Sequence record: MZ726796.1
Strand: one strand, 5' to 3'
Source of the DNA: Escherichia phage vB_EcoS_ASO78B
Length of the DNA: 46,233 nucleotides
Part shown: positions 17,714 to 43,460 of the stretch, piece after piece
Numbering within the stretch: position 1 is the first letter of the stretch
How the letters are laid out: each line of letters starts with the position of its first letter
The notes under the pieces: generated by a model
Told to the model about the DNA's origin: nothing
The model's input: only the letters and a program-made list of their open reading frames with translations
Databases searched by the model: none
Program-made: the position numbers and the translations under genes

Positions 17714-17954
17714 GATTTATCTTCACCCATCCTTTGCTTGCACCATGCGATACGATAAGTCCTTTCTTGCGCAACGCCTGAAGTCGGCGATCAAGGACTC
17801 GAAATCCCTCATGTGGTTTTGTTGCCAGCTTTTCACACTCTGCATGTATTCCGCTATGAATGCCTCCAGAGAAATGAATAGCCATGAACGTCATCGGCTC
17901 AACATAATCAAGCTCATCCATAATCATTGCGTCGAGTTCTTCATACTTGCTCAT
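17703..17954 (-). CDS. hypothetical protein
   Basis: 83 aa; C-terminal RVLDRRLQALRKKGLI may be a winged-helix DNA-binding element. Confidence 0.45.
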   Translation of the reverse strand: MSKYEELDAMIMDELDYVEPMTFMAIHFSGGIHSGIHAECEKLATKPHEGFRVLDRRLQALRKKGLIVSHGASKGWVKINHER

Positions 17955-18763
17955 CGCATCTTCTCCAGAATTGCCATGACCTCATGAATGTCAGCGACAG
18001 GAATCTGAATAAATTCCTCATCCTCTGCCACCACATGACCAGCAGGTAGAATTACATGGTCGGCTTGCTTCAACAGTTCAATCAGGCGGTCCACTGGCTT
18101 AATCTTCTTTGACTTCAGCACCTTCGCTGTGACCTTATCCTTGCCTTGCGCTTTAGCCTCTTCGACTGCCTCGTTGATAACTTTAACCGCATCATCACCA
18201 TGCTCGCGCGTTACCGCTACGGCGTTTGCATAGCTGATTTGCCCTGCGCTGATGCGAGCCTTCACTTCTGCTGGCACATCACCCAGTGACAGATGCATTT
18301 GCACGTCAGATACTGAACGACCTACCTTCTTGGCGATCTCTTCATTCGTCCAGCCAAAGCCTTTCAGTCTCGTATAAGCCTTCGCGCGCTCAAACGGGTC
18401 AAGTTGCTTTCCCTGACTGGATGAAACCATGAAGGCGATTTTATCTGCTTCGTCTCCGGTAAAATCCTTACACTCAATACGAACTATTGGTGCACCTCGT
18501 TCAATGGCACGCAATGCGCCGAGATAGCGATGCTGACCATCAAGAATGCGGATTCCCTTCTCGTCTGGAATGACTGTTAATGCTGGCAGTGGCTGACCTG
18601 ATTCCCAGCACTGCGCGAAATACTCCACATGCTGCTCATCTGCTTCACGGATGTTGTATCCTGGTTCCAGATAGATTTGCTCAACTGGCACTAGATAGGT
18701 TTTGTTAACAGCGATGCCGTTGCGCGTTTCTTTGTCTGAATAGATTTTGCTTAGTGTTTTCAT
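17951..18763 (-). CDS. ParB-like nuclease domain protein
   Basis: ParB/Srx-type motif IRILDGQHRYLGA in N-terminal half; 270 aa. Confidence 0.7.
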   Translation of the reverse strand: MKTLSKIYSDKETRNGIAVNKTYLVPVEQIYLEPGYNIREADEQHVEYFAQCWESGQPLPALTVIPDEKGIRILDGQHRYLGALRAIERGAPIVRIECKDFTGDEADKIAFMVSSSQGKQLDPFERAKAYTRLKGFGWTNEEIAKKVGRSVSDVQMHLSLGDVPAEVKARISAGQISYANAVAVTREHGDDAVKVINEAVEEAKAQGKDKVTAKVLKSKKIKPVDRLIELLKQADHVILPAGHVVAEDEEFIQIPVADIHEVMAILEKMR

Positions 18764-21927: not shown

Positions 21928-22003
21928 TGGCACACCATGCAGGATTCGAACCTGCAACCAATAGCTTAGAAGGCTACTGCTCTGTCCGTTGAGCTAATGG
22001 TGT
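21928..22003 (-). tRNA. tRNA-Arg (anticodon UCU)
   Basis: 76-nt cloverleaf read by hand: 7-bp acceptor stem ACACCAT/ATGGTGT, D-arm GCTC-AACGGACA-GAGC, anticodon loop CTTCTAA, T-arm GCAGG-TTCGAAT-CCTGC, encoded CCA. Confidence 0.8.
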
Positions 22004-22009
22004 TTGATT

Positions 22010-22097
22010 TGGCGGATAGTACAGGATTCGAACCTGTGAACCGTTTCCAGTTTATCGGTTAGCAACCGACTGCTTTCGGCCTCTCAGCCAACTATCC
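22010..22097 (-). tRNA. tRNA-Ser (anticodon GCU), type II
   Basis: 88 nt with long variable arm; acceptor GGATAGT/ACTATCC, anticodon loop TTGCTAA, T-arm ACAGG-TTCGAAT-CCTGT, encoded CCA. Confidence 0.75.
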
Positions 22098-36385: not shown

Positions 36386-36862
36386 TCAATCTACATCGGA
36401 AAGCAAGCCAAAATAGAAAAGCGTGGCTTTTTTTAGTTGCTCAAGACCATAAGCGATAGCGGCGTAGTGACCGAGTCTGCACATCTCAGTTAGCACGGCA
36501 TACTGGTCTTTGCTCACTCTGCTCTTACTTTTGTCACGGCGCTTTGCCTCAATCATTCCACAACTGTGCTTCACTCCAGGCGTCATTATCACGTTGTCGC
36601 CTATTCCAGTCTTAACCCCCATCTTCTGGCGTTTCAGTACGAACTGGATGCGGCTGGACGTGCCTGTTTCATTCGGGACGTGAAACCAGAGCACGTCAGG
36701 GAATTGGCTTTGCATCCATGTGCCGTAACCCATCTGTTCAGTCTCCTCTTTCGGGCATTCCCCACGATAACCGCTATCAAATACCCATATACCGCTATCA
36801 AGCTGCTTCACTTTGTTCTCCTGCAAAATCTTTTCTGTGGATGATGTCGCGACCTTTATCAT
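36386..36862 (-). CDS. VRR-NUC domain nuclease
   Basis: GDNVIMTPG...GMIEAKRRD...SKDQYAVL pattern; start uncertain because the 5' end overlaps the helicase. Confidence 0.6.
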   Translation of the reverse strand: MIKVATSSTEKILQENKVKQLDSGIWVFDSGYRGECPKEETEQMGYGTWMQSQFPDVLWFHVPNETGTSSRIQFVLKRQKMGVKTGIGDNVIMTPGVKHSCGMIEAKRRDKSKSRVSKDQYAVLTEMCRLGHYAAIAYGLEQLKKATLFYFGLLSDVD

Positions 36863-38720
36863 TAATGCGGTGCGTGATGCGTTTTGGCGCTTTAATCAAT
36901 GCCGCATACATCATGAATTGCTTGGCGTTTTGGCATTTCAGTATTTTCCCCGCCATTGACTTATCATCAAGGTGAGGAAAGACCGCCTTTGCCTTGAACA
37001 TGTTTTTCATGTGAGTTGCGCCACCATAAGGGTAGAAAACTTCGTTAGCCCAGCCTTCTTTGCCATCACAACGATTAATCCAGTAGCGATACAAAATACC
37101 TTCTCCATCCTTAGTTAACTGGACTTTGAAATCCATAACATCAGCCCACTCATTATCGGTATACGCACGCTCATTAAGTGCCGCATTCGGGTCGCGCAAA
37201 ACATGATCGCAATGTCGGCAATAACGCGCAGTGGGGTCGTTTTTAGTGCCGCAGCCATCATCAAAAATACGGATTCCGTGCTTATCGAAACCGCAACGGA
37301 TGTAACTGAAAAACTCCTCGCAACGACCGTCTGGCGATAATGCATCTTTGCCAATGCAGCGGCGCGCATATGGGCTGTTCATTGTCCCGCACTTCGGACA
37401 CGGAACCTGTTCACCACTGCGTTTTGAACGTTGCGCTTCAGCCTCTTCAAGGATTGGGTCTTCATACAGCTGACCAAGCTCAAACATCGTGCCTGAGAAA
37501 TCAAGAACCAGATGATCTTCTTTATGATACCCGGCATCAATTTGCTCTTTCTTCAGCAAGCGCATCCCGCGACCAAGCAACTGGACAAGGAGAGTTAGCG
37601 ACATTATTTTTCGTAATATGCAGCTCGTATCCCATAGCGGAATGTTGACACCAGTGGTAAGGGCTGCTATCTGGAATGTGAATTTTTTGCGCCCGGTGTA
37701 TGCATCTTTTAGAGCCTTCCTTCTGGCTTTTGGCCCCATATCTTCTGTAACTATTGAATAGCTTCCTTCAGGTAGGTATTTTGCCGCCTCCTGACAGTGC
37801 TTCTTGCCAGCACATGTAATCAATACTCCGTTTCTGTTTTTAGTCAGCTCCATAACCTTTAGCATTATTTTCTGCGTCAGCGTACCTTGTTCAAGGATTT
37901 CTTTCTGCATCTGCTTGAGCTGCTCGGTGGTAAAGTCCTGTGTGCCATCAACATCTGAACCATGAAACTCGGAAAGGTCATAATGCAGACTATCAACATC
38001 ATGAAGACCAAAAATTGTTGGCACAAGAAAGCCGTTTTCAACCATGTACTTGGTGTCTATATTGATAATCTCTTTCTTCCAGAAAGCGCCTTTTATTGAT
38101 GTAGTTCCGCGAAACGGTGAGCCTGTATAACCTATTATTCTCAACTCATGGCCGTGCTTATCTTTGCACCTTTTCATTAGCTCATTAATTATCACTGCAT
38201 ACTGCGTATCACCATCATTAACAACATCAATGTCATTAACCATATGATTTTCATCGATAAGCAGGAATCTTGGGCAAAAGTCAGAAAGCGCACCTTTTGC
38301 AATAACATTCCCTGATTCATCATTTTTATCAAACAAAGCATTTACAACAGTACCCTCAGAACCACAAATTATTGGATACGTAGAACTTTTCCTCCCCAAC
38401 GAAGCGCTGAATAGCGAGTTTCTTACACCAAGCGACCATAGCTCTTCCGCATCTTGCTCCACTATTTCGCCCTGTCTTGATAAAATCATCCCTGAATAGC
38501 CCATTTCCTGAAAACGCTTTGCTATCATGGCAATCATCAGTGACTTTCCGCTACCGACGCTTGCTGTTACATAGCTTGGACCAACATAATGGCGGATCAC
38601 ATCACCAGTTAACTTATATATCAACCACTGATATGGTCTTGGCTCGATATCACCAGTATCCAGATAAGATTTCAGTAGATTAATATCAATCTCTGAAATC
38701 ATCTTGTCTATTTTATGCAT
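36798..38720 (-). CDS. SF2 DNA helicase (DExH box) with C-terminal zinc ribbons
   Basis: Walker A SVGSGKS, LLIDENH DExH box, C-terminal CPKCG...C and CRHC pairs. Confidence 0.8.
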   Translation of the reverse strand: MHKIDKMISEIDINLLKSYLDTGDIEPRPYQWLIYKLTGDVIRHYVGPSYVTASVGSGKSLMIAMIAKRFQEMGYSGMILSRQGEIVEQDAEELWSLGVRNSLFSASLGRKSSTYPIICGSEGTVVNALFDKNDESGNVIAKGALSDFCPRFLLIDENHMVNDIDVVNDGDTQYAVIINELMKRCKDKHGHELRIIGYTGSPFRGTTSIKGAFWKKEIINIDTKYMVENGFLVPTIFGLHDVDSLHYDLSEFHGSDVDGTQDFTTEQLKQMQKEILEQGTLTQKIMLKVMELTKNRNGVLITCAGKKHCQEAAKYLPEGSYSIVTEDMGPKARRKALKDAYTGRKKFTFQIAALTTGVNIPLWDTSCILRKIMSLTLLVQLLGRGMRLLKKEQIDAGYHKEDHLVLDFSGTMFELGQLYEDPILEEAEAQRSKRSGEQVPCPKCGTMNSPYARRCIGKDALSPDGRCEEFFSYIRCGFDKHGIRIFDDGCGTKNDPTARYCRHCDHVLRDPNAALNERAYTDNEWADVMDFKVQLTKDGEGILYRYWINRCDGKEGWANEVFYPYGGATHMKNMFKAKAVFPHLDDKSMAGKILKCQNAKQFMMYAALIKAPKRITHRINDKGRDIIHRKDFAGEQSEAA

Positions 38721-39241
38721 TATTTTACCCTACCAAATTCACCATGATACTTTTTTGATGCTTCCGCATAAACTTTTGCTGCTTCTTCTTTTGTATCATA
38801 TCTGCCGAGCCATATTTTTTTATTATTTACATGTATAGAGCAAGTCCATTTTTTTGTTTGCTTACAAAAACCAACCCCTTTTACACCGGATGTGTTATGG
38901 CTTGGAATCCTCATGTTTCTTAAATTTCCATTAAAGTTTGTTTCTCTTAGGTTTTCTATCCTGTTATTCAATCTATTACCATCTTTATGGTCTATTATTA
39001 ACTCAGGCCAATAACCATGCACTAAAGCCCAAATTATTCTATGAACCTTTATATCAACCCCTAAAAATCCAACCTGAAGATATCCACTTACAGTCTTCGA
39101 ACCTGCAATAGCGCCACGTTTAACCCTGTTTGTTGTTGTTCTTTTCCATATGAGATTTATTCCGTCATATGAAAAATACTCCCGCAGCGTGGATACTGGT
39201 ATTGACTTCTCTTTTAACTTCATCAATTCGAAATCATTCAC
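38720..39241 (-). CDS. HNH-AP2 homing endonuclease (paralog of 548-1060)
   Basis: IDHKDGNRLNNRIENLRE HNH motif and SGVKGVGF..GRY AP2-like region; 1-nt overlap with helicase start. Confidence 0.8.
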   Translation of the reverse strand: MNDFELMKLKEKSIPVSTLREYFSYDGINLIWKRTTTNRVKRGAIAGSKTVSGYLQVGFLGVDIKVHRIIWALVHGYWPELIIDHKDGNRLNNRIENLRETNFNGNLRNMRIPSHNTSGVKGVGFCKQTKKWTCSIHVNNKKIWLGRYDTKEEAAKVYAEASKKYHGEFGRVK

Positions 39242-39303: not shown

Positions 39304-40254
39304 ATGTTTTATTGGGAAGAGATACAACAAAAGATGATTGGAAATTGGGAGGCGGCATTACTGTCAATAGTCAACATAGACAGGAAAATTTTTTCTGGGA
39401 AACATCAACCATGCCCTCATTGCATGGGGGTTGATCGGTTCCGCTGGGATAATCACTTCGAAATCAAAGGCGATGGCGGCGCAATATGCAATCAGTGCGG
39501 GTCAGGTAGCGGCATGAACTGGCTGATGAAACTTTCAGGCATGAACTTCCCTGAAGCACTAGAGGCGCTTGGTGGATTCCTGAATATGCACCCACGCGAA
39601 AAGCTGGAGGCAATCAGGAAGGAGTTGCCGAAGATAAATTACAACGATGACTTCATCACCGAGCAGGAAGTCGCCGCAATCATGTCTAAAACTACGCGTG
39701 TCTCGATGAATGAGTGGACTTTGACAAATGGTATTGGTTGTGACGTTAACGTCGTCAGAGGCAAATCTGGAGAGCTTATTGCGGTTGAGATGGTGCGTGC
39801 TGATACAATGAAGCCGTGCAACGTAGCATTCATTGGCATGGATGGTGATTCATTCAGAACGTTTTTCCGCGCAGGATACAACAAGGACTCAGCCATCAAC
39901 GGCAAACTCACACGCGGCGCGATAAGCACAATCGGAGAAGATAATGGAAAGTTCATTTATCTGGTATCTGATTATGCCGATGCGTGGAAGTGCCATTACT
40001 TCACTGGCGCGCATGTCTGGTGCTGCTGGTATCCTGAAAACATGTGGGAAGTGGTGCGTTCTGTTAGCGATGAGATGAAGGCACGGTTACGCTGCATAGT
40101 TAATTATAAATTTGACGAACTTTGTGCTGCGGAAAATGCAGGACTTCCGGTGATGTTGCCTGATGATGCTGACACTATCAGGATGGCGAAGCGAATCAGA
40201 AGAAAGATTTATGACGCTGGCGAGTTGATAGAAAAAATGTCAGTAAGCAGATAA
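39304..40254 (+). CDS. DNA primase (zinc-ribbon N-terminus)
   Basis: GKHQPCPHCMGVDRFRWDNH...CNQCGSGSGMNWLMK matches the primase zinc-binding ribbon pattern; only + strand gene inside the minus-strand module. Confidence 0.65.
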   Translation: MFYWEEIQQKMIGNWEAALLSIVNIDRKIFSGKHQPCPHCMGVDRFRWDNHFEIKGDGGAICNQCGSGSGMNWLMKLSGMNFPEALEALGGFLNMHPREKLEAIRKELPKINYNDDFITEQEVAAIMSKTTRVSMNEWTLTNGIGCDVNVVRGKSGELIAVEMVRADTMKPCNVAFIGMDGDSFRTFFRAGYNKDSAINGKLTRGAISTIGEDNGKFIYLVSDYADAWKCHYFTGAHVWCCWYPENMWEVVRSVSDEMKARLRCIVNYKFDELCAAENAGLPVMLPDDADTIRMAKRIRRKIYDAGELIEKMSVSR

Positions 40255-40257
40255 AAG

Positions 40258-40283
40258 AAACCCTCCAATAGGAGGGTTTTTGT
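40258..40283. terminator. bidirectional terminator
   Basis: AAACCCTCC-AATA-GGAGGGTTTTT. Confidence 0.7.
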
Positions 40284-40699
40284 TATTCCTTGAACTCTGG
40301 CGCTTCAGTCCAGAAGGCTACATTTCGCAGCGACTTACCCGTGTGATTGCACCAGTATATGCCTGAGTCATCATACTTCGCAGTAACCTTTACGCGATCA
40401 GCATCAATAACAACAACCTCCTGTCCATCTTTAGGGTCGAAAAGACGCGCATCTTTCCAGTTAGCAATCTCATTAAGTGAAAGAATGACATAACCAGGAA
40501 GATAAGAGCCGACATCAGCGATGTGAACTATAGTTCTCTCTGTTCTCTCTCCTGTGTAGTCTCCATTCCACTCATAAAGAATAATCGTGTCTCCAACCTT
40601 AAAATCACGATCGTTCTTTCTTAGTTCCGCCTTCTTGTGTCCGGTGACTACAGGCCAGAAGTGCTCAGGTAAAATTTTAAGTTCGTGTGTTTTGCTCAT
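40283..40699 (-). CDS. DUF3850 / ASCH-like (PUA-fold) domain protein
   Basis: N-terminal HELKILPEHF..V.TG.KKAELRKNDRDFKVGD matches the DUF3850 pattern as recalled; about 60-aa C-terminal extension. Confidence 0.55.
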   Translation of the reverse strand: MSKTHELKILPEHFWPVVTGHKKAELRKNDRDFKVGDTIILYEWNGDYTGERTERTIVHIADVGSYLPGYVILSLNEIANWKDARLFDPKDGQEVVVIDADRVKVTAKYDDSGIYWCNHTGKSLRNVAFWTEAPEFKE

Positions 40700-42276
40700 T
40701 ACAACCCCCTCATAAATCTCATGCGCTTAACGGCAGCAGAAAGATAATTTCTAACAGTTGAGTTCATCCGCAGACCATCCCATGAACCATCACTACACAT
40801 CTTAATTGCTCTTGGATTATCCCTGTCCAGCATTAGTGGTGAATGTTTGTTCTCCTCAATGGCAAGAAGAACTTCATAAACAAATTTATCCGGCGTTAAT
40901 GTGATATTATTCGAGTCAGCAGAATTGATTATCTTTTCAACTCTGTCACGGCACAGCTTGTTCTTTATAACAGACAAATAAGGCGTTTTAATGAATGCCT
41001 GCGATTCACAAATTCGCTTTATTTTTTCAACAATGTTCGACCACTCAGTATTCTCAAGCCCATCAAATGCCTGTTCACCCTCAAGGAATCTTTTCAGCCC
41101 TGCGAGGTGTTCAAGAACCGTGAGATAACCCCACTCGATATGCTCCGTCGTCACTGATGGTGTCATCCCCCGCCGACTTGACAGATCGGTATACGCCGCC
41201 AGAGTTGCAAGATCGACAATCATTAGACCCATACGAGGGATAACATCGCCAACAACACCATCGCAATCACCAAGCTCACTTTCCAGTTTCATAGACAGAT
41301 ATCTGTGCAGTTTTTTCGCATTATCATCAGCCCACACAACGTTAGTTTTCGCGGTAAGAACCCTACCTTTCCACTCATTGATTATTTTTCTTGAAAGCGT
41401 ACCACTCACTTCCACATCCTTCATTGCTGGCATTTCCTCACCAGCAAGATGACCAAGCTGGAACAGCACGCGCCCCATACCGCCATCCTTCTGCCATGAA
41501 CGCGCAGCATCTATTCCCTGCTCTGGCGTGACAGTAATCAGCGGAACAAATTTTGCGTTTTCAATTCCACCGTCTTTTGTTGCAAGTTCGTACTCATTCA
41601 TTGCCGACTTTAGCGCGCGCCCAACGCTGTGGTCCATCATCGCAAGGCGCTTATAATCTATGACTCCTTTCCCATCATCGCCACCAGTAAGTGGCACTAT
41701 CCATCCCTCAGCACTTGCTGCCGCCATGATGCGTTTTGGGTTTTGTTCCCAAGTAAGGTTTTCAAGCAACTCCTTGATTATTGGTCTGTTAGGCACCCAC
41801 ACTCCGCCATCAGTTAGGCCTCTATACCACGCCATCGTACCGCCAAGATATGCATTGCGCGGGTTGTTCCAGTCTTCAAGATGTTGCTTGTCATCGTTCA
41901 CAACGTAGAGCAAAGACCCACCTCCGGCAATCAGGTCTAACTGCATCTGTTTCGTCGATGTTGATTTAGATGCACAAACTCTGGAACCTATTCCCAGCTC
42001 ATTGGCATATGCCCTGACGAAACTCACCGGTGCACCCTTACCTGCACCAGAGCGAGCTACCAGAAATATGCCAGTATTGCAGATACTACCTGTTGGACCA
42101 ATCAAGTATCGTCCAGCCATCGCCTGAGCAAGGCCCAAAGCGCCAGTTAATCGATATCTTTCCCCTCCCTCACGGCGCTCAAACCCCCTTGCGATCTCAT
42201 CCATAAACTCACCAAGTGCCCCGGGAGTCTCCCGATTTATGCCCATAGCCAGAGACTCAAAATCAATCGAACTCAT
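40699..42276 (-). CDS. large hypothetical protein (525 aa)
   Basis: start taken at MSSIDF (ATG 42276) with GGAGGGTG RBS; GAGKG segment is not a canonical Walker A; ATGA-coupled to the DUF3850 gene. Confidence 0.5.
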   Translation of the reverse strand: MSSIDFESLAMGINRETPGALGEFMDEIARGFERREGGERYRLTGALGLAQAMAGRYLIGPTGSICNTGIFLVARSGAGKGAPVSFVRAYANELGIGSRVCASKSTSTKQMQLDLIAGGGSLLYVVNDDKQHLEDWNNPRNAYLGGTMAWYRGLTDGGVWVPNRPIIKELLENLTWEQNPKRIMAAASAEGWIVPLTGGDDGKGVIDYKRLAMMDHSVGRALKSAMNEYELATKDGGIENAKFVPLITVTPEQGIDAARSWQKDGGMGRVLFQLGHLAGEEMPAMKDVEVSGTLSRKIINEWKGRVLTAKTNVVWADDNAKKLHRYLSMKLESELGDCDGVVGDVIPRMGLMIVDLATLAAYTDLSSRRGMTPSVTTEHIEWGYLTVLEHLAGLKRFLEGEQAFDGLENTEWSNIVEKIKRICESQAFIKTPYLSVIKNKLCRDRVEKIINSADSNNITLTPDKFVYEVLLAIEENKHSPLMLDRDNPRAIKMCSDGSWDGLRMNSTVRNYLSAAVKRMRFMRGL

Positions 42277-42568
42277 CAATACACCCTCCATACGCGCAAG
42301 AATTTACCCGGGATAACACCATGTTTCACCGTTAACACAGCACCCACCCTGTCAGCCTCAATTTTTAGCGCTTTCTGAAGTGACGCCACTGTCATCTGAA
42401 AACCTCGCTCTATGTCGTATGCGTAGCACCCATCTCTGCCACCAATCAAAATTGAAGTTGAATACCCGTTCTCAAAGTAAAACTGACACCCATCAGGAAC
42501 GGTAAGATTATTTATCACGTCGTTAGCAAGCGATGTCGTAACAGGGAATATCGGCGCGCAACTCATAC
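42276..42568 (-). CDS. hypothetical protein
   Basis: about 97 aa from MSCAPIF; 1-nt overlap with the 525-aa gene. Confidence 0.4.
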
Positions 42569-42573
42569 TCACC

Positions 42574-42804
42574 TCACTCAACTCGCTTAATGTGCAAAAC
42601 TTCATCGAAATATGAGCACGTTCTGAATTTCATCCCGAAATCCTCACCAACCCTTCCGAGACACGCGCGAAATCTTTCAACAGACAGCCCTTTATCTGCA
42701 ATATCCTCATAAGAAATCGAATTAACCTGACCAACATCAATATGTTTTGCAATGCGATACACGAACTCCATCTTTGAACCGTCACGATACATTTTGTTTC
42801 TCAT
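42574..42804 (-). CDS. hypothetical protein (first gene of the minus-strand module)
   Basis: 76 aa from MRNKMY with GGAGG RBS; next to the AT-rich control region. Confidence 0.4.
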   Translation of the reverse strand: MRNKMYRDGSKMEFVYRIAKHIDVGQVNSISYEDIADKGLSVERFRACLGRVGEDFGMKFRTCSYFDEVLHIKRVE

Positions 42805-42967
42805 AGTAACCTCCATCCGCATTCCAATAGTAACTATAGATAAAAAATAAAATTAACGCAACACAAAACAGGTCTAACCAGCAACAACAGCTACCACAAT
42901 TAACAACTGGTAAGACCACCATCTCATATCTGATATGTGTGGATGGTGCCTGTCGTTCAATTTGCAC

Positions 42968-43400
42968 TCGATTTTTACCTAATTTACCGTATATTTATTG
43001 GTCAGTTTTTTGCATAACTAATTGATTTATATGATTTTACCGGTTTTACCGGAACTCTAATGAGTATTTTCATCATTGAGAGTGTCAGTATATTAATTGG
43101 TCTAATTTTTAAAGAACTCCAATAAAATCAATATATTAATATAAGAAAGTAACTTACTTACTTATATAGGATTTACCGGGTAAAACCGGTAACTCCTCCG
43201 CAGCCCGCGTCATTACTGGATTGATTTTTACCACCTGTAGGTAAATACAGTAGTTTTTAAGTCAGGATTGTTTTTGTAAGATGTTGATTACCGGTACTTT
43301 ATTTGAAAAACCGGGATTTACCGGGTTTTTGTGGTGTGATTAATAATCGCGCAATTGGTCATGTTTCACCAGAACCCACTAATGCGACACCTGAAAATCA
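42968..43400. repeat. AT-rich divergent control region with ACCGG iterons
   Basis: at least 7 copies of TTTACCGG/ACCGG[GT] at 43034-43051, 43171-43190, 43285-43296, 43306-43329; inverted TTTACC..GGTAAA at 43225-43245; no ORF. Confidence 0.6.
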
Positions 43401-43401
43401 T

Positions 43402-43430
43402 ATTGACGTAGAGTCACAACTGATGTAGAT
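43402..43430 (+). promoter_or_regulatory. sigma70 promoter for the right-end + strand genes
   Basis: TTGACG, 17-nt spacer, TAGATT, 30 nt upstream of ATG 43461; both hexamers sit within copies of the recurring motif. Confidence 0.5.
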
Positions 43431-43460
43431 TGAACTCATCGAAACAACGAGGGTGAAGAG

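What the first reader, a model, noticed from the sequence alone, without database searches (positions are those of the whole stretch)
40283..42276. PUA-like DUF3850 protein coupled to a 525-aa unknown protein in the replication module
The 138-aa protein has an N-terminal pattern typical of DUF3850/ASCH PUA-fold domains, which commonly recognise modified nucleic acid. It is ATGA-coupled to a 525-aa protein in which I see no canonical Walker A or known catalytic signature. The position among replication genes but lack of recognisable helicase/polymerase motifs suggests an uncharacterised nucleic-acid processing or modification function, or a novel initiator.
Basis: inference. Interest (0 to 1): 0.6.

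Follow-up and report, generated by a model that had tools for sequence, protein, structure and literature searches.

The report
Divergent MCM-like phage helicase plus accessory ASCH protein
The "unknown" 525-aa protein is a very divergent relative of the MCM/DUF3987-type ring helicases that many phages use with a primase to copy their DNA, and the small PUA-like protein after it is a dispensable add-on, so this is an ordinary replication module with an unusually diverged helicase gene.

Summary
Both genes are real. They sit on the minus strand of a ~46 kb Skatevirus-like siphophage genome. The 138-aa protein is a DUF3850/ASCH domain (Pfam 1e-20, PDB 3iuw 2e-10) with a C-terminal extension of about 60 aa. 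The junction is TAATG, a 1-nt overlap, not ATGA.

In sister phages the same slot holds a DUF3987 helicase or a third divergent version. The primase (87-89% identical) and the SF2 helicase stay conserved. DUF3850 is missing from most phages that carry the 525-aa gene.

Best reading: a replicative SF6 helicase working with the adjacent DnaG-type primase, and no modification system. Close relatives are reported RM-sensitive. The residue after the Walker A lysine is not Ser/Thr, which is unusual. Modest interest: a new member of a known kind.

The parts
40699..42276 (-). 525-aa MCM-like (SF6, DUF3987-like) AAA+ ATPase, the candidate replicative helicase. The ORF is open up to an alternative ATG at 42291 (530 aa). 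Residue numbers used in this report are for the 530-aa translation; subtract 5 for the 525-aa protein.
42022..42057 (-). P-loop / Walker A, 'VARSGAGKGAPV'. K85 is at 42039-42037. The residue after Lys is Gly rather than Ser/Thr.
   Evidence: G82, G84 and K85 are invariant in 14 members. K+1 is G8/Q3/S2/N1, versus S/T in 72/72 DUF3987 proteins.
41890..41913 (-). Walker B strand 'LLYVVNDD'. The invariant D133 is at 41895-41893.
   Evidence: Beta strand 126-132 in the AF2 model.
41461..41541 (-). 'LITVTP' strand (sensor-1-like, compare MCM AAANP) and 'GGMGRVLF' (invariant R274, putative arginine finger, compare MCM SRFDLIF).
   Evidence: Invariant columns. Strand and helix order. hhalign pairs GMGRVLF with DUF3987 GLSERFL. 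The functional assignment is inference.
40702..41055 (-). C-terminal helical domain (residues ~413-530), including a helix-helix-helix-strand-strand unit at about residues 439-498 that looks like a winged helix.
   Evidence: AF2 secondary structure. DUF3987 helicases are described as carrying a C-terminal wHTH (PMC4889955). The domain assignment here is inference.
40283..40699 (-). 138-aa DUF3850/ASCH (PUA-like) protein. The domain covers residues 4-75 and carries the GxKxxxxR motif (G20, K22, R27). A C-terminal extension of about 60 aa follows.
   Evidence: Pfam 1.2e-20. PDB 3iuw 2e-10. PHROG 986. Motif per PMC5615036. The extension is found full-length in only 8 phage records.
40256..40281 (.). 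Bidirectional intrinsic-terminator-like hairpin between the convergent primase gene and the DUF3850 gene.
   Evidence: sequence.
39304..40254 (+). 316-aa DnaG-type primase (zinc ribbon plus primase core), convergent with the helicase operon.
   Evidence: PF08273 at 1.2e-09. phrog_510 at 5.6e-73. A primase homolog lies just downstream of the helicase-like gene in 14 of 14 Skatevirus-like loci.
42276..42605 (-). Small partner protein. The ORF is 109 aa; 96 aa if it starts at the ATG at 42566, as annotated in Bas81. Its TGA overlaps the helicase ATG (TGATG).
   Evidence: Homologous to the swi2 92-aa protein that also abuts its helicase-like gene (6e-9). Aligned family.
42574..42822 (-). Second small partner (82-aa ORF; 76 aa in Bas81), a paralog of the one above and the first gene of the leftward operon.
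   Evidence: Similar to L007 67-aa (1e-7) and swi2 92-aa (1e-4). phrog_28700.
42970..43330 (.). Cluster of about 10 (T/A)TTTACCGG-type direct and inverted repeats around an AT-rich stretch, in the divergent intergenic region. Candidate iterons or operators.
   Evidence: The exact 8-mer occurs 7 times in the window against 0.79 expected, and 4 copies fall within 290 bp. The repeats co-vary with helicase cassette type.

Best explanation
The 525-aa protein is a highly diverged member of the MCM-related (superfamily 6) AAA+ helicase group that includes DUF3987 proteins and the C-terminal halves of phage primase-helicase fusions. It most likely forms a ring, burns ATP (P-loop K85, Walker B D133/D134, trans-acting R274, lid R353) and unwinds phage DNA at the fork. 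The separately encoded DnaG-type primase (39304-40254) would lay primers, and a host polymerase would do the synthesis. The gene is expressed from a leftward early operon: two small paralogous partner proteins, then the helicase, then DUF3850. Upstream lies a repeat-rich intergenic region that may be the origin or operator. The small partners are candidate DNA-binding or loading factors.

The DUF3850 protein is a small PUA-like (ASCH) nucleic-acid-binding accessory protein. It rides at the 3' end of the operon and is not needed by the helicase.

Shown: fold, motifs, homology, synteny and dispensability of DUF3850. Inferred: helicase activity, cooperation with the primase, and the roles of the partners and repeats.
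For: Sequence:
- Every family member matches phrog_3022 'DNA primase' at positions ~355-733 of 788 (E 1e-12 to 1e-16; ours 6e-11).
- P0093 also matches phrog_25777 at positions 424-676 of 907. The Zn-ribbon N-terminus of that family is matched by this window's primase, a Rosetta-stone link.
- A bona fide DUF3987 fusion (P0084) hits phrog_3022 (1.3e-7) and phrog_10514.
- The family HMM hits Skatevirus VSt472 gp72, annotated as replicative DNA helicase or DNA primase, at 2.4e-25.

Structure:
- The AF2 model has pLDDT 86 and pTM 0.73.
- BFVD matches: LPSTLL 'replicative DNA helicase' at E 3.7e-20 (TM 0.76/0.81), primase fusions at 1e-14 to 1e-16, and DUF3987 proteins at about 1e-9.

Motifs: G82, G84, K85, D133, R274 and R353 are invariant down to 22% identity.

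Synteny:
- Akira has a DUF3987 protein (3e-34) in the same slot.
- An unrelated contig (L020) has small protein, DUF3987, primase, SF2 helicase and DUF3799 in the same order.
- A primase lies adjacent in 14 of 14 related loci.

Literature: DUF3987 proteins are SF6 helicases associated with primases (PMC4889955). A PriCT-DUF3987 protein is a demonstrated 5'-3' helicase (PMC11724360).
Against: - No biochemical data exist for this family.
- Pfam DUF3987 is not reached (E 0.26 for ours; best 0.01 in the family).
- hhalign against a DUF3987 alignment is weak (E 0.0035, probability 9%).
- No sequence hit to any PDB chain.
- The residue after the Walker A lysine is Gly, or Q/N/S in other members, instead of the Ser/Thr found in 72/72 DUF3987 proteins. 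The ATPase could therefore be atypical or weak.
- The primase stays 87-89% identical while the helicase slot is swapped. This argues against a tightly co-evolved primase-helicase interface.
- The phage also encodes an SF2 helicase (36798-38720) that could do some of the unwinding.
- No MCM-type N-terminal OB/Zn domain is present, and no helix-2 insert is evident in the secondary-structure string.
Confidence: 0.7

Rival explanations
1. The protein is an origin-binding initiator or helicase loader (AAA+ plus winged helix, like Orc1/Cdc6 or DnaC). It would recognise the upstream repeats and recruit host DnaB or the phage SF2 helicase, rather than unwinding DNA itself.
Confidence: 0.17
2. One reading: DUF3850 and the 525-aa protein form a functional pair that recognises or makes modified nucleic acid. 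That would be a DNA or RNA modification or processing system.
For: PUA-like/ASCH domains can bind or process modified bases. YqfB acts on N4-acetylcytidine (PMC6972931) and EVE domains bind modified bases (PMC7641849). The two genes overlap by 1 nt.
Against: The 525-aa protein has an MCM-like helicase fold, not a transferase or glycosylase fold. DUF3850 was not detected in 10 of 14 loci with this gene, with decayed remnants in Bas81 and swi2. DUF3850 occurs with other helicase types (Akira) and in at least 500 unrelated phage records. No methyltransferase or base-modification gene turned up among the ten larger ORFs scanned outside the replication block. Bas77-81 are markedly RM-sensitive (PMC11990801).
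Confidence: 0.04
3. The protein is a degenerate, catalytically dead AAA+ scaffold or an anti-defence decoy derived from a helicase. The real replicative helicase would be supplied by the host (DnaB).
For: The missing Ser/Thr after the P-loop lysine. Extreme divergence and frequent swapping of the slot, as seen for genes in an arms race.
Against: The P-loop Gly/Lys, Walker B Asp and both arginines are invariant down to 22% identity, which indicates selection on nucleotide hydrolysis. No PADLOC hits. The slot is always filled by one of three homologous versions, which suggests an essential function.
Confidence: 0.07

Closest known systems
DUF3987 (PF13148) phage/MGE helicases, e.g. Salmonella phage Akira gp02, and AgaPH (PriCT-DUF3987, a shown 5'-3' helicase; PMC11724360)
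   Same: Same genomic slot in sister phages. Same length class (~470-530 aa). Same order of P-loop, Walker B and G..R(F/V)L arginine motif. Structural matches at E ~1e-9. Association with a primase and with a small upstream gene. A C-terminal winged-helix-like end.
   Different: Below the Pfam threshold (E 0.26) and no BLASTP similarity. The P-loop reads AxSGxGK[GQSN]AP instead of QPPSxGK[ST]. Walker B is DD rather than DE.
phrog_33132 proteins of Skatevirus (VSt472 gp72, and the LPST10/LPSTLL 'replicative DNA helicase')
   Same: Clear homologs (HMM 2.4e-25; Foldseek 3.7e-20, TM ~0.8). Identical slot between the small partner gene and the convergent primase. Also lacks a Pfam hit and lacks Ser/Thr after the P-loop lysine (GGKD).
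   Different: Only ~18-29% identity, 495 aa, a canonical DE Walker B, and different downstream accessory genes.
Archaeal/eukaryotic MCM helicases (e.g. M. kandleri MCM, PDB 3f8t; MCM2-7)
   Different: No MCM N-terminal OB/Zn domain. 9-16% identity. No PF00493 hit. A helix-2 insert is not evident. There are extra helices between Walker B and the sensor-1 strand.
Prophage/MGE MCM-like helicases: Bacillus cereus BcMCM (primase-MCM fusion; PMC2715239) and SCCmec Cch (PDB 5dgk)
   Different: Those are detectably MCM or DUF927 by sequence. This family is not. Here the primase is a separate, convergent DnaG-type gene.
DUF3850/ASCH small proteins (PDB 3iuw from Enterococcus faecalis; PHROG 986 'RNA-binding protein')
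   Same: The 138-aa protein's residues 4-75 match at E 1e-20 (Pfam) and 2e-10 (3iuw), and carry the GxKxxxxR ASCH motif.
   Different: It carries an extra C-terminal extension of about 60 aa, found in only 8 phage records. The extension is weakly similar to a separate 65-aa Akira protein that its record labels DUF551 (E 8e-4 in a tiny database). Pfam does not confirm this.

Membership tests
DUF3850 (PF12961) / ASCH superfamily | Match to the Pfam model above the gathering score | tested here: met
   73.9 bits against a cutoff of 22.9, E 1.2e-20, profile positions 1-76 of 77. ASCH scores 24.4 bits against a cutoff of 21.2.
DUF3850 (PF12961) / ASCH superfamily | [quoted passage not shown] | tested here: met
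   G20-H-K22-K-A-E-L-R27 in the translated sequence.
DUF3850 (PF12961) / ASCH superfamily | PUA-like beta-barrel fold | tested here: inconclusive
The fold is inferred from sequence homology to the solved DUF3850 structure 3iuw (2e-10).
DUF3987 (PF13148) | Match to the Pfam model above the gathering score (27 bits) | tested here: not met
   10.9 bits, E 0.26 for the window protein. The best among 14 family members is E 0.01.
DUF3987 (PF13148) | Profile-profile homology to DUF3987 proteins | tested here: inconclusive
   hhalign of A2 against 72 DUF3987 proteins gives a colinear full-length alignment at E 0.0035 but probability 9%. There are indirect links through phrog_3022 and phrog_10514 and Foldseek matches at E ~1e-9.
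DUF3987 (PF13148) | Canonical Walker A GK[ST] | tested here: not met
   K+1 is S/T in 72/72 DUF3987 proteins but G/Q/N in 12/14 members of this family; Gly in the window protein.
MCM-clade AAA+ (SF6) helicases | AAA+ core and lid superimposable on MCM ATPase domains, better than on other AAA+ clades | tested here: met
MCM-clade AAA+ (SF6) helicases | Conserved Walker A Lys, Walker B acidic residue, arginine finger, and sensor-2 arginine in the lid | tested here: met
   K85, D133, R274 and R353 are invariant in 14 sequences down to 22% identity. Assigning R274 and R353 to the finger and sensor-2 roles is inference from their position in the predicted secondary structure.
MCM-clade AAA+ (SF6) helicases | Pre-sensor-1 beta-hairpin and helix-2 insert | tested here: inconclusive
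   A short hairpin is predicted at about residues 199-212, between Walker B and the sensor-1 strand. No insert is visible in helix 113-122. Model coordinates could not be inspected.
MCM family proper (PF00493 with N-terminal OB/Zn domain) | Pfam MCM match and an N-terminal OB-fold domain | tested here: not met
   No Pfam hit. Only about 70 mostly helical residues precede the P-loop strand.
Replicative helicase (functional class) | NTP-dependent DNA unwinding, hexamer formation, requirement for phage DNA synthesis | not testable with these tools
   Needs biochemistry and genetics. Supported only by homology, primase fusions and synteny.

The most novel reading that the evidence does not exclude
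The two-to-three-gene unit (small partner(s), MCM-like helicase, and upstream cassette-specific repeats) would be an exchangeable replicon-specificity cassette. Skatevirus-like phages would swap it among at least three mutually unrecognisable helicase versions while keeping the same primase and SF2 helicase. This family's helicase would use a non-canonical nucleotide-binding mode, with no Ser/Thr after the P-loop lysine. The swapping might be driven by host defences that sense phage replication proteins.
Probability: 0.15. Interest if true: 0.55.

Novelty: new member of a known kind. Interest (0 to 1): 0.3.

Why it matters
The result gives a function to a gene that is annotated 'hypothetical protein' in all 10 phage records that carry it, including BASEL collection phages Bas77, Bas80 and Bas81. 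It also completes the replication module of these model-candidate phages. It shows that Pfam DUF3987 misses at least two diverged helicase subfamilies: this one and phrog_33132. It flags a natural experiment, because nearly identical phages carry three very different helicase cassettes. It removes a false lead that these phages might carry modified DNA.

Tried and rejected
- Pfam, NCBIfam, PADLOC and PDB sequence searches of the 525-aa protein found nothing.
- BLASTP against the syntenic Akira DUF3987 helicase showed no similarity.
- Word-indexed homolog searches with the single sequence and with a profile returned only 6 close relatives.
- The first AlphaFold run, with 8 sequences, was poor (pLDDT 57.7) and was discarded. 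The 14-sequence alignment was needed.
- hhalign against a DUF3987 alignment was too weak to stand alone.
- Foldseek against PDB gave only weak E-values, although the hits were dominated by MCM.
- The afdb50 library was unavailable.
- My recollection that the C-terminal extension of the DUF3850 protein is DUF551 was not confirmed by Pfam. There is only a weak match to an Akira protein so labelled.
- The match between the 'longest contig 46233' of DUF3987 protein P0079 and the window length is a coincidence. That contig (L020) shares no nucleotide similarity with the window.
- A Pfam scan of ten larger ORFs outside the replication block returned no methyltransferase or other base-modification family.
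Full report
**What is there**

The window is essentially a complete ~46 kb siphophage genome. Its closest relatives are E. coli phages vB_Eco_ZCEC08 and BASEL Bas77, Bas80 and Bas81, followed by Skatevirus-type Salmonella phages. The BASEL paper places Bas77-81 in a Skatevirus cluster (PMC11990801).

On the minus strand, a tightly packed leftward operon runs from a repeat-rich intergenic region (~42823-43460) down to a bidirectional terminator hairpin at 40256-40281. It contains:
- an 82-aa ORF at 42574-42822;
- a 109-aa ORF at 42276-42605;
- the large ORF at 40699-42276/42291;
- the 138-aa ORF at 40283-40699.

Convergent with the operon is a 316-aa DnaG-type primase at 39304-40254 (Zn_Ribbon_Prim 1.2e-09; phrog_510 5.6e-73). 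Beyond it lie an HNH endonuclease, a 640-aa SF2 helicase, a VRR-NUC-like protein, a DUF3799 exonuclease, Erf and SSB.

**Check of the observation**

The 138-aa protein is DUF3850 (E 1.2e-20), with a weaker ASCH hit. It is homologous to the solved DUF3850 structure 3iuw (2e-10). It carries the ASCH GxKxxxxR motif as G20/K22/R27 (PMC5615036).

The large ORF is 530 aa from the first ATG. The ATG at 42276 has a GGAGGG box 7 nt upstream, overlaps the upstream gene's TGA, and is the start used in relatives, giving 525 aa.

The junction with DUF3850 is TAATG, a 1-nt overlap, not ATGA.

The statement 'no canonical Walker A' is only narrowly true. An alignment of 14 family members down to 22% identity shows invariant G82, G84 and K85 (A-x-S-G-x-G-K), invariant D133 at the end of a hydrophobic strand (LLYVVNDD), and invariant R274 and R353.

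**What the 525-aa protein is: sequence evidence**

Pfam, NCBIfam, PADLOC and PDB sequence searches are empty. The family is tiny: 10 phage records, all annotated 'hypothetical protein', and 12 representatives among 1.84 billion proteins.

PHROGs provides the bridge:
- The window protein (6e-11) and every member tested (1e-12 to 1e-16; one member, P0088, only 7.5e-05) match positions ~355-733 of the 788-position phrog_3022 'DNA primase'. That is the non-primase C-terminal half.
- Member P0093 also matches phrog_25777 at positions 424-676 of 907. The zinc-ribbon N-terminus of that family is matched by this window's own primase. In other phages, therefore, the two proteins are one polypeptide.
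- A genuine Pfam-DUF3987 primase fusion (P0084) hits phrog_3022 and phrog_10514.
- P0093 reaches more than 100 Skatevirus-type phages by tblastn, where the gene is annotated 'replicative DNA helicase' or 'DNA primase'.
- The family HMM hits VSt472 gp72 at 2.4e-25. gp72 in turn hits phrog_3022 (9e-34), phrog_25777 (5e-32) and phrog_10514 (2e-8), and has no Pfam hit.
- Direct hhalign to 72 DUF3987 proteins is colinear and pairs SGAGKG with PPSAGKT and GMGRVLF with GLSERFL. It is statistically weak (E 0.0035).

**What the 525-aa protein is: structure evidence**

With the 14-sequence alignment, AlphaFold gave pLDDT 86 and pTM 0.73. An 8-sequence attempt had failed (pLDDT 57.7).

Against predicted viral structures, the best non-family matches are:
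- Salmonella phage LPSTLL 'replicative DNA helicase' (E 3.7e-20, TM 0.76/0.81);
- the C-terminal parts of 700-930-aa primases or primase-polymerases from Serratia phage Eta, Pantoea phage LIET2 and Brucella phage Pr (E 1e-14 to 1e-16);
- many 'DUF3987 domain-containing' proteins (E ~1e-9).

The predicted element order is:
- strand 74-78, then the P-loop and helix 86-98;
- strand 126-132 ending in D133/D134;
- a helical insertion and a short hairpin at ~199-212;
- strand 247-254 ('LITVTP', compare MCM AAANP);
- R274 immediately before strand 275-279 ('GMGRVLFQL', compare MCM SRFDLIF);
- lid helices, with R353 at the start of helix 346-368;
- a helix-helix-helix-strand-strand unit at 439-498.

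Assigning sensor-1, arginine-finger, sensor-2 and winged-helix roles to these elements is my inference from this order.

All of this agrees with the published view of DUF3987 proteins. They are described as SF6 helicases distantly related to MCM. They carry a C-terminal wHTH and are usually fused to, or next to, AEP or DnaG primases (PMC4889955). It also agrees with the demonstrated 5'-3' helicase activity of a PriCT-DUF3987 protein (PMC11724360).

**Synteny**

The slot between the small upstream gene and the convergent primase is always occupied by one of three homologous but mutually almost unrecognisable versions:
- this family (window, ZCEC08, Bas77/80/81, swi2, BUCT541 and ten IMG/VR genomes);
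- phrog_33132 (VSt472, LPST10 and others);
- DUF3987 proper (Akira, 3e-34).

Meanwhile the primase stays 87-89% identical and the SF2 helicase 82-98% identical at the protein level. In all 14 Skatevirus-like loci with enough flank, a primase homolog lies just downstream.

An unrelated 46,233-bp contig (L020) carries, in order, an 83-aa protein, DUF3987, a 59-aa protein, a Zn-ribbon primase, an SF2 helicase and DUF3799. Its identical length to the window is a coincidence, and there is no nucleotide similarity. It shows the same module with a canonical DUF3987 in the position of the 525-aa protein.

**The DUF3850 gene**

DUF3850 is not a conserved partner of the helicase. Within the 14 loci examined, it is detected only in the window and ZCEC08. 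annotations add Bas77 and Bas80 as carriers. Bas81 and swi2 retain only 15-20-aa remnants, so the gene was lost there.

It does occur with the DUF3987 version in Akira. As a ~75-aa domain it occurs in at least 500 phage records of many kinds: T7-like, T1-like, P2-like, and Listeria and Enterococcus phages.

The ~60-aa C-terminal extension is found in only 8 records. It is at best weakly similar to a separate 65-aa Akira protein labelled DUF551.

Known ASCH proteins bind or process RNA or modified cytidine (PMC5615036, PMC6972931). DUF3850 is also found fused to ParB-CTPase folds in prophages (bioRxiv 10.1101/2025.10.10.680097). My best guess is a dispensable nucleic-acid-binding accessory protein. 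Its actual ligand is unknown.

**Why not a modification system**

Three observations argue against it:
- the helicase fold;
- the facultative presence of DUF3850;
- the absence of methyltransferase or base-modification hits among the ten larger ORFs scanned outside the replication block.

In addition, Bas77-81 are reported to be markedly sensitive to restriction-modification systems (PMC11990801).

**What remains odd**

1. The residue after the P-loop lysine is G (8), Q (3), S (2) or N (1) in this family, and D in gp72. It is S/T in 72/72 DUF3987 proteins.
2. The helicase slot is a swap hot-spot inside an otherwise conserved module.
3. The upstream intergenic repeats co-vary with cassette type. 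TTACCGG-type repeats number 6 in the window, 4 in Bas81 and 11 in swi2, but only 1 in ZCEC08. They are absent from VSt472 and Akira, and the remote member L006 has its own AAATCACTGG repeats.
4. A family of small proteins always abuts the helicase gene, including upstream of phrog_33132 and DUF3987 versions. Members are 67-109 aa, share a C-terminal h-x-h-x-R-V motif, and occur as two tandem paralogs in the window.

Together these suggest an exchangeable origin-specificity cassette. This is inference.

**Verdict**

The finding is real. It resolves to a known kind of system: a divergent MCM-like/DUF3987-like replicative helicase next to its primase, plus a dispensable ASCH-type accessory gene.
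- Confidence that the protein is an MCM-clade AAA+ ATPase homologous to phage primase-associated helicases: ~0.9.
- Confidence that it acts as the replicative helicase: ~0.7.
- Interest: modest (0.3).

Noticed in passing
window 42970-43330: About 10 direct or inverted copies of (T/A)TTTACCGG flank an AT-rich stretch in the divergent intergenic region. The exact 8-mer occurs 7 times in the window against 0.79 expected, with 4 copies within 290 bp. Similar repeats occur upstream of the same helicase family in Bas81 and swi2 but not in VSt472 or Akira. They are candidate iterons or operators.
   Followed up: partly
window 42276-42605 and 42574-42822 (-); also L005:4600-4878, L007:274-477, L009:2884-3105, L020:3577-3828: A family of small proteins (67-109 aa, C-terminal h-x-h-x-R-V motif, no Pfam hit) always sits immediately upstream of, and abuts or overlaps, the MCM-like/DUF3987 helicase gene. 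The window has two tandem paralogs. They may be loaders or origin-binding partners.
   Followed up: partly
window 40699-42822 versus L003, L005, L009: The helicase slot is a recombination hot-spot. Primase (87-89% aa identity) and SF2 helicase (82-98%) are conserved across phages whose slot holds three mutually almost unrecognisable helicase versions. Nucleotide similarity to most relatives stops at the DUF3850/helicase boundary, at about 40715.
   Followed up: partly
window 38720-39241 (-): An HNH_3 + AP2-domain endonuclease (173 aa) lies between the SF2 helicase and the primase. It is absent from ZCEC08 and Akira, and other relatives carry only a ~36%-identical HNH. It is probably a mobile homing endonuclease.
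   Followed up: no
window 40283-40470 (-), residues ~77-138 of the DUF3850 protein: The C-terminal ~60-aa extension is found full-length in only 8 phage records. It is weakly similar (E 8e-4 in a tiny database) to a stand-alone 65-aa Akira protein that its record calls DUF551. Pfam does not confirm this.
   Followed up: partly
window 21928-22097 (-): Two adjacent tRNA genes, tRNA-Arg(tct) and tRNA-Ser(gct), lie in the middle of the genome.
   Followed up: no
window 36798-38720 (-): The 640-aa SF2 helicase (ResIII/Helicase_C) carries several C-terminal zinc-ribbon motifs (DUF7577, Zn_Ribbon_1, RanBP-type). This makes it the phage's second helicase, and its role relative to the MCM-like protein is unknown.
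   Followed up: no
window 17954-18763 (-): A 270-aa protein with a ParB-type HTH/KorB domain is encoded on the minus strand between plus-strand ORFs of the left part of the genome.
   Followed up: no
L020 (Logan ERR10108600_191): A contig of exactly the window's length (46,233 bp) carries a DUF3987 helicase module in the same gene order but shares no nucleotide similarity with the window. The equal length is a coincidence.
   Followed up: yes
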